A stretch of 32,000 nucleotides of DNA from Candidatus Omnitrophota bacterium (GTDB lineage: Bacteria; Omnitrophota; Gorgyraeia; Zapsychrales; JANLHA01). The translations under genes were made by a program, and so were the position numbers. A model generated the notes under the pieces. It saw nothing but the letters and a program-made list of their open reading frames with translations. It was not told where the DNA came from and searched no databases. This document shows positions 6,702-11,082 of this stretch, in pieces (within the stretch, counting starts at the first letter, position 1; every line of letters starts with the position of its first letter). The stretch covers positions 2,610,001 to 2,642,000 of the forward strand of contig OY759724.1 of NCBI GenBank assembly GCA_963662715.1, given 5' to 3'.

Positions 6702-6726
6702 CTCAGGTTTATTCCTGAGTTTTTTT
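6702..6726 (+). terminator. weak intrinsic terminator after the PCP_red gene
   Basis: CTCAGG (6702-6707) / CCTGAG (6714-6719) 6-bp stem, 6-nt loop, then T7 (6720-6726). It overlaps the last codons of the convergent ATPase gene. Confidence 0.3.
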
Positions 6727-8901: not shown

Positions 8902-11082
8902 TTAGGTTGCCACGGGATCGGAAGAAAAGATCCCTTTATCCACCTTGATCCCTTTGGTGATAAGTTCATCTGCACATTTAGGAACATAATGGCACGACTC
9001 ATAGAATCCTTTGACTTTCCCGTCAGAGTCCCGCCCCGTTTGTCTGAATACAAAAATATCTTTTAAAATCAGTTCATGTTCGCTTGTTATCCCGGCGATT
9101 TCCGTGACCCCGGTGACTTTTCGTGACCCGTCTGTAAACCGGGCCATATGAACGATAACATTAATGGCCGAAGACATCATTTCATTGATGGCCCGCATGG
9201 GAAGTTCAATTCCGCTTAACAATATCATGGAACTCATGCGAATTAAAACATCGCGGGTTGAGTTGGCGTGCAGGGTCGTCATGGAGCCGTCATGTCCTGT
9301 GTTCATCGCCTGCAGCATGTCCAGAACTTCCGGCCCGCGGCACTCGCCGATGACGATGCGGTCCGGACGCATTCTCAAAGAGTTGACGAAAAGATCCCTC
9401 AGCGAAACTTCCCCGACCCCTTCAACGTTGGGGGGGCGGGATTCCAGCCGGCACCAGTGCTCTTTTTTTAAGCCTAATTCGGCGGCGTCTTCAATTGTGA
9501 TAATGCGCTCCCCGTCCGGGATAAATTCCGATAAAACGTTTAAAAGGGTCGTTTTCCCGGATCCGGTTCCCCCGGATATGATAACGTTCATGCGGCCCAA
9601 AACACAGGCATAAAGGAAATCTCTCATGGGGGGAGATAAACTCCGGAATTTTTGGATAATTTCGTCAACGGTGAGTTTTTCCGCCCCGAATTTCCGGATC
9701 GTTATAGACGGTCCGGTTAAACAGAGAGGAGGGATGATGGCATTAAATCGTGAACCGTCCGGAAGCCGGGCATCCACCATAGGGGTCGATTCATCGATAC
9801 GGCGGCCCAGGGGGGCGATAATCCGGTTTACGATGGCTCTTAACTGCTGGTCTGAAACGAACTGATGTTTGGTCAAGCGAAGTTGTCCCTCTTTTTCTAT
9901 ATATATCTCTTTACAGCTGTTAACCATGATATCGGTGACAGCAGGGTCTTCCATGACTTCCTCTAATATCCCTAATCCGAAAGCTTCATTAACAATTTCA
10001 TTAACCGTCTTTAAACGTTGTTCATGGGAAGCAATAAAAGCTCCTTCTTCTTCCAGCAGAGAGCTGACAATTTTTTTCGCAGATTCTTTTAATTGCTGGG
10101 CTTTTGACTGGTCGGTAAAATGTTCCGGCGTCAAAGATTCGAGATCCAGGCGGGTAATCAGTAAGGCATGGATTCTCCGTTTTAAGGCGAAAAGTTTTTC
10201 CTTTTCCGCGGCGGCTGCATCGTTTGCTGCAGATACGTCCTGCTTTTGTTCTCCGCTGAACTGATCCCAGAAAGTCTTGGAGTCTGCAAATTTTCCTGTC
10301 TCAACGTGGCTTCTTTCGTCCCCGGCGGTATGAAAAAACACATCTTTTTTCTTTAATTCATTAACGATTTTGCGGAAGGCATCGGCGATCGGGCCTTTAG
10401 GATTGTCAATGACGGAAGGGACTCCGCGTTCCAGCGCCTGTCCGACCCCGCTCCCATCGGAAGGAATGCGTCCGATGATATCTATATCCAAGGCATCACG
10501 GACTTCCTGCCAAGGGACGCCTCCCTGGCTTGCCGCCCGGTTTAAGACCAGTTTCACCATTTTGGTGGGGAAATGCATGTCTTCGAGAATTTTAATACAC
10601 CAGCGCAATTGATAAACCGCTAAAACGTCAGGAGTGCCGATCAGCAAAATAATGTTTGCGAGGTCGAGGACATTGAGCATCATTTCGCTGAATGTCTGCC
10701 CCAGATCTATAACGATATAATCGTAGCTCTGTGAGACCATCTTCAGAAACGCCTTGATATCTTTTGAAGCCATGGTGCTGATTTCTTGCGGATCTGTAAT
10801 GACGGGAAGGAAATCAAGTCCGGACGAATGGGAGATAACGTGTTTCCTGACAATATTGAATCCCGGCTGTTCTGTCTCCTGGATTTCCGTGAGCATCTGG
10901 GCCAGTGATTTTTCCGGAGCCACACCAATCATGCGGGCCATATCGTGTCCGGCCTGAATGTCCAAATCAAGCAATAATACCCGTCTCCCGGATAGGGCCC
11001 AGGAAGAGGCTAAATTGACAGCAACAAACGTTTTGCCGACGCCACCTTTATTGCTAAAAACAGGGATGATTTTTGAATCCAT
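8902..11082 (-). CDS. cpaF: ParA/MinD(CpaE/TadZ-like)-CpaF/TadA fusion ATPase, proximal paralogue
   Basis: 726 aa with the same architecture: [86 protein letters not shown]. It is 21 nt upstream of the paralogue on the same strand. Confidence 0.85.
   Translation of the reverse strand: [726 protein letters not shown]

What the first reader, a model, noticed from the sequence alone, without database searches (positions are those of the whole stretch)
6709..11082. Orphan tandem pair of ParA/MinD-CpaF fusion ATPases
Two adjacent co-oriented paralogues (726 and 723 aa, 21-nt spacer) share one architecture. Each joins an N-terminal deviant-Walker-A ParA/MinD/CpaE(TadZ)-type domain ([10 protein letters not shown]) through a charged linker to a complete CpaF/TadA secretion-ATPase core. 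In canonical Tad loci, the CpaE/TadZ localisation ATPase and the CpaF/TadA motor are separate proteins. They sit among tadB/tadC platform, secretin and Flp pilin/prepilin peptidase genes. None of those is visible here: the pair is bounded by a convergent PCP_red-domain gene and a divergent MscS channel gene. Stretches of the motor core are identical in both copies ([42 protein letters not shown]), while the ParA halves and linkers have diverged. That pattern fits an old duplication kept for a hetero-oligomeric motor. A self-localising, two-subunit secretion-type ATPase without cis-encoded platform or fibre genes could drive something other than a Tad pilus.
Basis: partly seen in the sequence, partly recalled or inferred. 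Interest (0 to 1): 0.72.

Follow-up and report, generated by a model that had tools for sequence, protein, structure and literature searches.

The report
Extra tandem pair of Tad-pilus motors
An uncultured Omnitrophota bacterium carries, away from its Tad pilus gene cluster, a conserved two-gene operon of extra pilus-motor ATPases, each fused to a MinD-like positioning module; the fusion is already known, but the extra conserved pair is not and may mean this pilus uses more than one motor.

Summary
Window 8902-11082(-) and 6709-8880(-) encode 726- and 723-aa paralogues (52% identical, 21-nt spacer). Each joins a MinD/ParA-type module through a disordered linker to a complete CpaF/TadA motor. 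No Tad genes lie in the 32 kb window.

The fusion is not new. It is homologous end to end with the "TadZA" fusion described in Bdellovibrio, and it is the standard Tad-locus ATPase of Omnitrophota. In 76 surveyed loci it sits in RcpC-secretin-fusion-DUF192-Flp pilin clusters. The source genome holds a third copy (P0034), 93% identical to one such Tad-locus gene.

What is new is the pair itself. "A" and "B" are two distinct orthogroups, always adjacent (12/12 loci) and never near Tad genes. They are co-inherited across at least 6 Omnitrophota lineages and are under strong purifying selection. All motor motifs are intact. B has lost both switch-I aspartates of its MinD module. A and B keep complementary parts of the ancestral N-terminal region.

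Best reading: auxiliary motors acting in trans on the Tad machine, analogous to pilT-pilU. This is inferred, not shown. It is a new variant of a known kind, of moderate interest.

The parts
8902..11082 (-). Gene A (726 aa, = P0001): TadZA-type fusion ATPase, first gene of the pair
   Evidence: ORF; Pfam ParA/AAA_31/CbiA plus T2SSE; orthogroup A; AF2 model
10348..11082 (-). A: MinD/ParA-like module (aa 1-245). Walker A is [10 protein letters not shown]; switch I is LLLDLD (D39, D41 intact)
   Evidence: Best fold matches: 3EA0 (TM 0.88), MinD 1G3Q (TM 0.86)
10195..10347 (-). A: linker (aa 246-296), predicted disordered, with one short helix at aa 269-276 (TFWDQFSG)
   Evidence: pLDDT below 50 for aa 253-289, helix at 269-276; motif comparison
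8992..10194 (-). A: CpaF/TadA-homologous part (aa 297-697): helical bundle, NTD and CTD. Walker A [9 protein letters not shown] (504-512), Asp box TIEDAAEL (529-536), Walker B [10 protein letters not shown] (574-583), His box [12 protein letters not shown] (596-607)
   Evidence: Caulobacter CpaF 9e24/8rkd, E 1e-108, aligned to CpaF residues 82-473; Foldseek 8rjf TM 0.77; motifs
8881..8901 (-). 21-nt A-B spacer ATATATAAGGCTTGAAAAATC, with a weak AAGG ribosome-binding site and no terminator
   Evidence: Spacers in other loci run from -4 to 18 nt
6709..8880 (-). Gene B (723 aa, = P0121): TadZA-type fusion ATPase, second gene of the pair
8152..8880 (-). B: diverged MinD-like module (aa 1-243). Walker A is intact, and 11 of B's 22 fixed differences from the Tad-locus type lie here
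8758..8766 (-). B: switch-I codons E39-L40-N41, replacing the D-x-D of MinD, A and most T. The catalytic Asp equivalent is Asn in all 10 B orthologues examined
   Evidence: alignment to MinD chains; group consensus; all B sequences
6955..7782 (-). B: T2SSE motor core (aa 367-642). All catalytic motifs are intact, but LHMRPDR replaces LRMRPDR (R570H in A numbering)
11139..11166 (-). Promoter-like site TGGAAA-16-TATAAT (10/12), 57 nt upstream of the start of A
   Evidence: This is a consensus match only; the count in the region is not above the shuffles
6401..6688 (+). Small DUF2621/PCP_red-like gene (95 aa) with the motif TPFGFHGPM..DME..DY..YG(H/Y)P. It also flanks the pair in L008, L009/L010 and probably L091/L092. 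Link to the pair is uncertain

Best explanation
The two genes form a co-transcribed pair of TadZA-type motor ATPases. Each has a MinD/TadZ-like module, a flexible linker and a CpaF/TadA hexameric secretion ATPase.

Origin: they arose inside Omnitrophota by duplication of the Tad-locus tadZA gene ('T'). That copy then duplicated in tandem and moved away from the Tad locus.

Condition: both motor cores are catalytically intact and both genes are kept by selection.

Mechanism (inferred): the pair has no platform, pilin or secretin genes of its own, so it must work in trans. The most likely target is the TadB/TadC platform of the Tad pilus machine, whose own motor (P0034) and structural genes are encoded elsewhere in the same genome. 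On this reading A and B are auxiliary motors that change pilus dynamics, for example dedicated or boosted retraction, or a second operating mode. This parallels pilT-pilU, which serves the type IVa pilus from an unlinked two-gene operon.

Specialisation: the diverged N-terminal regions would give each motor a different address or regulation. A keeps the ancestral MinD module and helical bundle. B keeps the ancestral linker motifs (LWEKLG, EEDEE) but has a MinD module predicted to bind ATP and not hydrolyse it (D39E, D41N). This complementary retention suggests that the two act together. Whether they form one mixed ring or two cooperating rings is open.

Shown: architecture, orthogroups, adjacency, absence of Tad genes in cis, presence of a third copy in the genome, intact motifs, purifying selection.
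Inferred: action on the Tad machine, the auxiliary or retraction role, and A-B cooperation.
For: - Architecture.
- Three orthogroups A, B and T.
- T always lies in RcpC-secretin-T-DUF192-...-Flp/minor pilin clusters. Counts: 48/48 loci with upstream room, 40/40 with downstream room. TadB and TadC (T2SSF) are seen in L024.
- A is always followed by B: 12/12 loci, spacers from -4 to 21 nt, and no Tad-cluster homologues within up to 10 kb.
- A, B and the T-type P0034 each lie on a 3,360,633-bp contig. P0034 is 93% identical to P0018, which sits in a Tad cluster.
- NJ tree rooted with Caulobacter CpaF: A 100%, B 100%, A+B sister 72%, T paraphyletic. Distant fusions are never closer to A or B than to T.
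- Motor motifs are intact in all groups.
- dN/dS: A 0.04-0.09, B 0.06-0.09, T 0.015.
- The A and B divergence matrices correlate with r = 0.975 over 10 loci.
- B-specific D39E/D41N/R570H and the complementary retention of linker versus MinD-plus-bundle.
- Precedent: pilU generally lies downstream of pilT in one operon, unlinked to assembly genes, and depends on PilT (PMC6821130, PMC6762196).
- In Bdellovibrio the TadZ-plus-linker part of TadZA is the partner-binding and localisation module.
Against: - No direct link between A/B and the Tad machine was shown.
- Genome-wide co-occurrence of A/B with T could be checked only for the source genome.
- Known Tad systems use a single bifunctional ATPase, CpaF (PMC6920026, PMC12019362).
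- In Bdellovibrio the extra rcpA2-tadA2 module is dispensable for predation and has a different expression profile. Its authors suggest accessory or Tad-unrelated functions.
- A, B and T share one architecture. Nothing separates them the way PilT differs from PilB.
- The D41N change also occurs in about 7% of T proteins, so it may not matter functionally.
- The A+B sister grouping has only 72% support, rests on one outgroup, and could reflect long-branch attraction.
Confidence: 0.45

Rival explanations
1. First reader's reading. A and B assemble into one obligate hetero-hexameric, self-localising motor that powers some machine other than a Tad pilus, such as another filament, a secretion or DNA-transfer channel, or an unknown membrane complex encoded elsewhere.
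For: - A and B are always adjacent, tightly spaced and co-inherited.
- Their ancestral N-terminal features are retained in a complementary way, and B's MinD module is probably catalytically dead. Together these would fit an asymmetric A:B MinD-module dimer.
- CpaF rings made of non-identical protomers exist: single chains carry 2-4 motor cores.
- The pair is never next to Tad genes.
- Its neighbourhood repeatedly includes a small DUF2621/PCP_red-like protein.
Against: - No alternative platform or fibre genes recur next to the pair. The recurrent neighbours are a methyltransferase, radical-SAM enzymes and small proteins of unknown function.
- A and B derive from the Tad-locus motor and keep 72-75% identity to it across the NTD and CTD, so they probably dock on the same kind of platform.
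- The tandem paralogues PilT and PilU form separate homohexamers (PMC6821130).
- Both A and B keep every motif needed to work alone.
Confidence: 0.2
2. Condition-specific or largely redundant spare motors. A and B are ordinary TadZA paralogues with no qualitatively new role. Each would form its own homohexamer and substitute for T under particular conditions, like the dispensable tadA2 and isolated tadA3 of Bdellovibrio.
For: - Bdellovibrio carries extra tadA paralogues, and its rcpA2-tadA2 module is dispensable under the tested conditions.
- A shows only 8 fixed, conservative differences from T.
- c-di-GMP signalling elements often lie near the pair: a riboswitch-controlled response regulator, PilZ and GGDEF genes. 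This hints at conditional control.
Against: - Redundant copies would not be expected to stay paired and intact across at least 6 lineages down to ~60% identity, with dN/dS of 0.04-0.09.
- B has 22 fixed differences, including catalytic-site changes in its MinD module.
- A and B always occur together, never singly (12/12 loci).
Confidence: 0.25
3. Mobile-element or conjugation-associated ATPases. The best NCBIfam hit is the 'TadA family conjugal transfer-associated ATPase', and the window contains transposase and integrase genes.
For: - TIGR03819 is the top NCBIfam hit.
- A Mutator-family transposase lies at 20408-21598 and an rve integrase at 29398-30189.
Against: - The TIGR03819 scores (324 and 316 bits) are below its cutoff of 373.
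- The pair sits in a conserved chromosomal neighbourhood shared with other genomes. The transposase-bearing block is an insertion relative to those genomes and lies more than 9 kb away.
- No relaxase, coupling protein or other transfer genes were seen.
Confidence: 0.03

Closest known systems
TadZA fusion ATPase of Bdellovibrio bacteriovorus (tad locus 1; bioRxiv 10.64898/2026.07.08.737194)
   Same: [quoted passage not shown]
- A Bdellovibrionales fusion (P0188, MCB0390198.1) matches the A/B/T profile end to end (positions 3-719, E 1.5e-220). It sits between the secretin and TadB in a Tad locus.
- The Omnitrophota T paralogue occupies the same position.
   Different: - A and B are not in a Tad locus, they come as a conserved tandem pair, and they are extra to the in-locus copy.
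- Bdellovibrio's extra tadA paralogues (tadA2 with rcpA2, and isolated tadA3) are not described as fused or tandem.
- RomR-type partners are unknown for Omnitrophota.
CpaF/TadA, the single bifunctional motor of Tad (type IVc) pili (Caulobacter; PDB 8RJF, 8RKD, 9E24)
   Same: - Residues 297-697 align with CpaF residues 82-473 (E 1e-108, ~43% identity, Foldseek TM 0.77).
- All catalytic motifs are present.
   Different: - CpaF's disordered N-terminus is replaced here by a MinD-like module and linker.
- Canonical systems have one such ATPase per machine, co-oriented with two platform genes (PMC6920026). This genome has three, and two of them are unlinked.
pilT-pilU operon of type IVa pili
   Same: - Two adjacent co-oriented paralogous hexameric motor ATPases.
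- They are derived by duplication of the pilus motor and encoded away from the platform, pilin and secretin genes.
- They act in trans on the same machine, and the second depends on the first (PMC6762196, PMC6821130).
   Different: - This is an analogy, not homology at subfamily level: pilT_fam TIGR01420 scores 57 and 49 bits against a cutoff of 319.
- PilT and PilU lack N-terminal extensions and differ in architecture from PilB.
- A, B and T all share one architecture.
- No retraction role has been shown for A/B.
TadZ/CpaE and MinD/FleN/FlhG positioning ATPases
   Same: - Deviant Walker A (KGGVGKT) and a MinD fold. Best matches are 3EA0 (TM 0.88), MinD (0.86) and FleN (0.83).
- In T, the module sits at the tadZ position of the Tad locus.
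   Different: - There is no N-terminal receiver-like domain of the kind TadZ has (that feature is from my own knowledge of PDB 3FKQ).
- The curated models are not reached: CpaE_hom_Actino 48 bits vs 154, minD_bact 77 vs 213.
- The module is covalently fused to the motor.
- There are no minC or minE genes nearby.

Membership tests
CpaF/TadA-type secretion ATPase (T2SSE superfamily) | T2SSE domain (PF00437) above Pfam's gathering score | tested here: met
   193.2 bits (A) and 199.5 bits (B) against a cutoff of 24.9
CpaF/TadA-type secretion ATPase (T2SSE superfamily) | Walker A, Asp box, Walker B with catalytic Glu, and His box | tested here: met
   [17 protein letters not shown], DRIxxGECRG and [12 protein letters not shown] are present in A and B and conserved in each orthogroup
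CpaF/TadA-type secretion ATPase (T2SSE superfamily) | Closest solved relative is CpaF across the helical bundle, NTD and CTD | tested here: met
   9e24/8rkd at E 1e-108, query 297-697 aligned to CpaF 82-473; Foldseek 8rjf at E 4e-38, TM 0.77
CpaF/TadA-type secretion ATPase (T2SSE superfamily) | Encoded in a Tad operon, co-oriented with two platform genes (operational criterion of PMC6920026) | tested here: not met
   No T2SSF gene in the 32 kb window or within up to 10 kb in 12 A/B loci. The criterion is met by the paralogue type T (L024 and L094)
NCBIfam TIGR03819 (TadA family conjugal transfer-associated ATPase) | Score at or above the curated cutoff (373.15 bits) | tested here: not met
   323.9 bits (A) and 316.4 bits (B)
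TadZA fusion (Bdellovibrio type) | [quoted passage not shown] | tested here: met
   Pfam. AF2 model: MinD fold at 1-245, linker 253-289 with pLDDT below 50, then the CpaF part
TadZA fusion (Bdellovibrio type) | End-to-end homology with a Bdellovibrionales fusion | tested here: met
   P0188 (Bdellovibrionales MAG, 756 aa) matches profile positions 3-719 in one stretch, E 1.5e-220
TadZA fusion (Bdellovibrio type) | Located in the Tad locus between the secretin and platform genes | tested here: not met
   Not met for A/B. Met for the T paralogue and for P0188
TadZA fusion (Bdellovibrio type) | The TadZ-plus-linker region binds a polarity hub (RomR) and localises dynamically | not testable with these tools
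   Experimental property reported in bioRxiv 10.64898/2026.07.08.737194
TadZ/CpaE | ParA/MinD fold with a Walker A-like motif K/RGGXGXS/T | tested here: met
   KGGVGKT in both proteins; fold matches; the consensus is taken
TadZ/CpaE | N-terminal atypical receiver-like domain ahead of the ATPase domain (feature recalled from PDB 3FKQ; the paper is not held) | tested here: not met
   The MinD fold starts at residue 4 in both proteins. Solved TadZ is absent from the top 60 sequence hits and the top 50 fold hits
TadZ/CpaE | NCBIfam TIGR03815 (CpaE_hom_Actino) cutoff of 154.45 bits | tested here: not met
   47.6 bits (A) and 35.7 bits (B)
MinD (cell-division site selection) | NCBIfam minD_bact or minD_arch cutoffs (212.9 / 201.75 bits) | tested here: not met
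   76.6 and 78.4 bits for A; 59.8 and 83.1 bits for B
MinD (cell-division site selection) | Switch-I D-x-D with the catalytic Asp (E. coli MinD D40; from my own knowledge) | tested here: inconclusive
   A has D39-L-D41. B has E39-L-N41 in all 10 orthologues. About 7% of T proteins also have D-L-N
MinD (cell-division site selection) | C-terminal amphipathic membrane-targeting helix | tested here: inconclusive
   A short helix is predicted at aa 269-276 (TFWDQFSG). The motif FWEKFG is conserved in T, LWEKLG in most B, and it is degenerate in most A. Membrane binding was not tested
PilT/PilU retraction ATPases (functional analogy only) | NCBIfam pilT_fam TIGR01420 cutoff (319.1 bits) | tested here: not met
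   57.3 bits (A) and 49.4 bits (B)
PilT/PilU retraction ATPases (functional analogy only) | Tandem co-oriented paralogues, unlinked to the assembly genes and derived from the pilus motor | tested here: met
   The pilT-pilU organisation is taken from PMC6821130

The most novel reading that the evidence does not exclude
Omnitrophota Tad pili have evolved a division of labour among three TadZA motors, independently of the PilB/PilT split in type IVa pili. The in-locus T motor would assemble the pilus. The unlinked A/B operon would supply a dedicated antagonistic or force-boosting motor, possibly an A:B heteromer held together by an asymmetric MinD-module dimer with one dead ATP site. That would make this the first Tad system with a separate retraction-type motor.
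Probability: 0.2. Interest if true: 0.75.

Novelty: new variant of a known kind. Interest (0 to 1): 0.4.

Why it matters
Tad (type IVc) pili are the textbook case of a pilus that extends and retracts with a single bifunctional ATPase. A conserved, selected and unlinked operon of two extra Tad-type motors suggests that some Tad machines use several motors, as type IVa pili do with PilB, PilT and PilU.

In Omnitrophota, Tad pili are proposed to mediate attachment to, or attack on, host cells (PMC10066038). Extra motors could therefore bear on how these ultra-small predators or parasites engage prey.

The finding also gives a natural experiment in subfunctionalisation of a localisation-module-plus-motor fusion. 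A keeps the MinD module and helical bundle, while B keeps the linker motifs.

The practical limit is that these organisms are mostly uncultured, so tests will be heterologous or computational.

Tried and rejected
- **Source-genome Tad locus.** Exact look-ups of P0034 and P0001 are not on record. The locus is therefore inferred from the 93%-identical P0018 in L005.
- **Genome scan.** The genome-contig scan returned only 4 close loci. Breadth came from a metagenome scan with an alignment of type-A N-terminal halves.
- **The ~570-aa T-cluster gene as a fused TadB/C platform.** Rejected. It has no TM segments, an HTH-like N-terminus and no T2SSF hit. Real TadB and TadC were found in L024.
- **A conserved partner gene next to A/B.**
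  - The DUF2621/PCP_red-like gene is confirmed by an HMM search only in the window, L008 and L009/L010. L091/L092 carry a same-sized 104-aa gene in the same position.
  - The ~180-aa secreted protein of L008 and L009 is not homologous to window 5810-6340.
  - The PF10672 methyltransferase lies near the pair in the window, L001/L002/L004/L013, L006/L007, L008, L091/L092 and L093, but not in L009/L010 or L012. It looks like plain synteny.
- **Calling the N-module TadZ by structure.** Solved TadZ was not among the top hits, and the TadZ structure paper is not held.
- **B's D41N as a unique signature.** Weakened, because 10 of 146 T proteins also have DLN.
- **Rooting.** Only one outgroup (Caulobacter CpaF) and NJ were used. 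The A+B sister grouping reaches only 72%.
- **Mobile-element origin.** Rejected on conserved synteny.
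Full report
**1.

The window has two co-oriented ORFs on the minus strand, 21 nt apart: 8902-11082 (726 aa, "A") and 6709-8880 (723 aa, "B"). 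They are 52% identical over their full length.

- Both hit ParA/AAA_31/CbiA models at residues ~4-245.
- Both hit T2SSE (PF00437) at residues ~367-648, with 193 and 199 bits against a cutoff of 24.9.
- The quoted motifs and identical stretches are present.
- Identity between A and B by region: MinD module 44%, linker 15%, helical bundle 21%, motor NTD 67%, motor CTD 69%.
- The neighbours are as described. One correction: the 95-aa convergent gene passes Pfam's threshold for DUF2621, not for PCP_red.
- Nothing else in the 32 kb window is Tad-related. It holds three B12-binding radical-SAM genes, a methyltransferase, MscS, membrane proteins, large surface-type proteins, a Mutator transposase, an rve integrase, and a c-di-GMP riboswitch in front of a response regulator.

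**2. Anatomy**

The C-terminal 400 residues are a CpaF/TadA motor.

- Caulobacter CpaF is the best solved relative (E 1e-108; query 297-697 aligned to CpaF 82-473; Foldseek TM 0.77).
- The Walker A, Asp box, Walker B and His box motifs are all intact.

An AlphaFold2 model built on a 55-sequence family alignment (mean pLDDT 77) gives these regions:

| Residues | Feature |
|---|---|
| 1-245 | Confident MinD fold |
| 253-289 | Disordered linker, with one short helix at 269-276 (TFWDQFSG) |
| 287-368 | Helical bundle |
| ~372-700 | Motor NTD and CTD |

The N-module's best fold matches are the Chlorobium "ParA family ATPase" 3EA0 (TM 0.88), MinD (0.86) and FleN (0.83). Solved TadZ does not appear among the top hits. 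The module starts at residue 4, so it lacks the N-terminal receiver-like domain of TadZ. No curated MinD or CpaE model is reached.

**3. Organism and family**

Named relatives are overwhelmingly Candidatus Omnitrophota. The window protein lies on a 3,360,633-bp contig.

Full-length homologues split into three orthogroups:

- **A**: P0001-like, 60-78% identical.
- **B**: P0121-like, 64-74% identical.
- **T**: far more numerous, 65-93% identical to P0034.

P0034 is a third paralogue, recorded on a contig of the same 3,360,633-bp length as A and B.

**4. T is the ordinary Tad-locus ATPase of Omnitrophota**

P0018 is 93% identical to P0034. It lies in the order RcpC - secretin - fusion - DUF192 - ~570-aa HTH-like protein - Flp - class-III-signal pilin - several minor pilins with a GQSTLEY processing motif.

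I scanned metagenomes with an alignment of type-A N-terminal halves and classified every ORF. Among 76 T loci:

- 48/48 with upstream room have RcpC and a secretin.
- 40/40 with downstream room have DUF192.
- 39/40 have the HTH-like protein and Flp.

L024 shows TadB and TadC (T2SSF, E 1e-16 and 3e-14) after the pilins. In the other loci a giant TadG-like protein intervenes and pushes them beyond the 10-kb flank. The fusion therefore sits where tadZ and tadA normally sit.

**5. The fusion is already described**

A 2026 preprint on Bdellovibrio bacteriovorus reports an "atypical TadZA hybrid protein" with exactly this layout.

- It is essential for predation.
- Its TadZ-plus-linker region binds the polarity hub RomR.
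- The same genome has extra paralogues: rcpA2-tadA2, which is dispensable, and an isolated tadA3.

An exhaustive profile search of 1.84 billion representatives found roughly 45-50 different 50%-identity clusters with the full-length fused architecture.

- One of them, P0188, comes from a Bdellovibrionales MAG.
- P0188 matches the profile end to end and sits in a textbook Tad locus: Flp - prepilin peptidase - RcpC - secretin - TadZA - TadB.
- Another comes from Riflebacteria.
- Many distant members have TadZ-like degenerate Walker A motifs. None is closer to A or B than to T.

**6. What is not described: the A/B pair as a conserved unit**

- In every locus with room, A is followed directly by B (12/12). 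Spacers run from -4 to 21 nt.
- No homologue of any Tad-cluster gene lies within up to 10 kb.
- A-type and B-type clusters are equally numerous (~18-20 each). Their contig lengths pair up.
- Over 10 loci in at least 6 lineages, down to ~59-61% identity, the A and B identity matrices correlate with r = 0.975. The two genes have been inherited together.
- Synteny with the closest relatives is clear: rSAM - response regulator - 148-aa protein - rSAM - ~200-aa protein - A - B - methyltransferase - ~220-aa protein. So the pair is chromosomal, not the edge of a broken Tad cluster. The transposase-bearing block in the window is an insertion relative to those relatives.
- A promoter-like site lies 57 nt upstream of A, and no terminator separates A from B.
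- Both genes are under strong purifying selection. dN/dS is 0.04-0.09 for A and 0.06-0.09 for B. The neighbouring methyltransferase shows 0.10-0.16 and T shows 0.015.
- An NJ tree rooted with Caulobacter CpaF gives A 100%, B 100%, A+B sisters 72%, and T paraphyletic. This fits an origin from the Tad-locus gene within Omnitrophota.

**7. How A and B differ**

Relative to T, A has only 8 fixed and conservative changes. B has 22, of which 11 are in the MinD module and 9 in the motor CTD.

- B replaces the switch-I D-x-D of MinD with E39-L-N41 in all 10 orthologues. In MinD and Soj the second Asp is needed for hydrolysis (my own knowledge).
- B also has LHMRPDR in place of LRMRPDR just before Walker B (R570H).
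- Caveat: about 7% of T proteins also carry D-L-N.

Retention of ancestral features is complementary:

- A keeps T's MinD motifs (TPDxLAVYQ, SQGGVAWQEVR). Its helical bundle is 53% identical to T's, against 26% for B.
- B keeps T's linker motifs (FWEKFG becomes LWEKLG, plus the acidic EEDE patch). Most A proteins have lost these.

In Bdellovibrio the TadZ-plus-linker region is the partner-binding unit. This pattern therefore looks like subfunctionalisation of the addressing or regulatory part, while both motors stay active.

**8. Mechanism**

Shown:

- Two intact CpaF-type motors with diverged N-terminal modules.
- Probably co-transcribed, co-inherited and under selection.
- No platform, pilin or secretin genes in cis.
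- A Tad-locus paralogue in the same genome.

Inferred: they act in trans, most likely on the TadB/TadC platform of that Tad machine, as auxiliary motors.

The closest working analogy is pilT-pilU. Those are tandem paralogues derived from the pilus motor and unlinked from the assembly genes. PilU depends on PilT, and the two form separate homohexamers (PMC6762196, PMC6821130). Tad systems are otherwise regarded as single-ATPase machines (PMC6920026, PMC12019362). A dedicated second motor would therefore be a real variation.

The hetero-hexamer idea remains possible. The complementary retention and the predicted dead MinD site in B would fit an asymmetric A:B module dimer. Single chains carrying 2-4 CpaF cores exist. 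But it is untested, and the PilT/PilU precedent argues for separate rings.

The rivals are: a motor for a different machine, spare or condition-specific paralogues, and a mobile-element origin. They are listed with their evidence. The last is effectively excluded by synteny.

**9. Verdict**

Its main novelty claim, an unprecedented fusion with no Tad system, is not supported. The fusion is the known TadZA type and is standard in this phylum, and the genome almost certainly has a complete Tad locus with a third copy.

The new element is the conserved, unlinked tandem A/B operon and its pattern of subfunctionalisation. I rate it a new variant of a known kind, with interest about 0.4. It would rise substantially if A/B proved to be dedicated retraction-type motors or an A:B heteromer.

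Noticed in passing
window 28273-28354 (+) and 28431-29240 (+); L001 6316-6397, L002 6261-6342, L003 1367-1448: A c-di-GMP-I-GGC riboswitch (RF03167, 60.8 bits vs 59) lies directly upstream of a REC-domain response regulator. The riboswitch-regulator unit is conserved ~3.6 kb from the A/B pair in three related genomes. Other c-di-GMP genes (PilZ in L006, GGDEF in L008 and L091) also recur within 10 kb of the pair.
   Followed up: partly
P0131, P0135, P0144; P0173, P0174, P0175, P0176, P0178, P0180: Single polypeptides carry 2, 3 or even 4 (P0174, 1605 aa) complete CpaF/TadA motor cores in tandem, with no MinD module. Two three-core chains would form a covalently heteromeric pseudo-hexamer. Taxon and gene context are unknown. 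No paper describing them turned up, but I did not search for them specifically.
   Followed up: partly
window 6401-6688 (+); L008 9414-9728, L009 9506-9808, L010 5357-5659, L091 7269-7583: A small (~95-104 aa) DUF2621/PCP_red-like protein with the conserved motif TPFGFHGPM.(S/T)DME..DY..(Y/F)G(H/Y)P lies directly next to the A/B pair in several lineages. It is divergent upstream in most and convergent downstream in the window. It is absent from L001/L002/L006/L012/L013. Function unknown.
   Followed up: partly
window 18533-28111: This ~10 kb block is absent from the syntenic loci L001-L003 and has a low-GC start (31% at 18-19 kb). It holds a LamG/DUF2793 protein (18533-20317), a Mutator-family transposase (20408-21598), a DUF2793/PA14/GLEYA protein (21635-24301), a TPR protein and a 748-aa protein. 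The transposase may have split one large surface protein gene into two.
   Followed up: no
window 11340-14582: MscS (11340-12407), a 236-aa protein and a 472-aa polytopic membrane protein lie between the pair and its otherwise conserved divergent neighbour (14643-15257). The whole block is missing at this position in L001/L002/L003. An MscS gene is present at the equivalent position in L093.
   Followed up: partly
L005 12163-14770 and equivalents in ~40 T loci: Every Omnitrophota Tad locus places a DUF192 protein and a conserved ~570-630-aa cytoplasmic protein between tadZA and the flp pilin genes. The larger protein has an HTH-like N-terminus (MGVVYKL...LSCR...SKSSVN) and no Pfam family. Neither is a canonical Tad component.
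   Followed up: partly
L005 19674-22163 and equivalents (L014, L031, L058, L064, L065, L067, L074, L080, L088): The gene after the last minor pilin is a very large protein (1356 aa in L005) with N-terminal TM segments and a weak TadE/G-like (PF13400) hit in L074. This fits reports that Omnitrophota giant proteins are flanked by pilus machinery (bioRxiv 10.64898/2026.06.07.730766).
   Followed up: no
L056 2955-3971 and 4017-5123: In one T locus the fusion gene is split into a 338-aa MinD-linker-bundle ORF and a 368-aa motor-core ORF. This is probably a frameshift or nonsense artefact. The break is after the helical bundle, not at the expected tadZ|tadA boundary.
   Followed up: partly
window 3998-4684 (+): A 228-aa protein with no Pfam hit contains an internal duplication: two ~90-aa repeats, each ending in a CPDGGK motif. 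It is 83% identical in L001/L002/L004 and conserved in synteny next to the PF10672 methyltransferase.
   Followed up: no
window 1832-3751 (-), 15300-17234 (-), 30529-31989 (-): Three B12-binding radical-SAM paralogues lie in the 32 kb window. Two of them, of ~640 aa, are 38% identical to each other. One of the ~640-aa genes (15300-17234) and the 486-aa gene (30529-31989) have syntenic orthologues near the A/B pair in related genomes.
   Followed up: no
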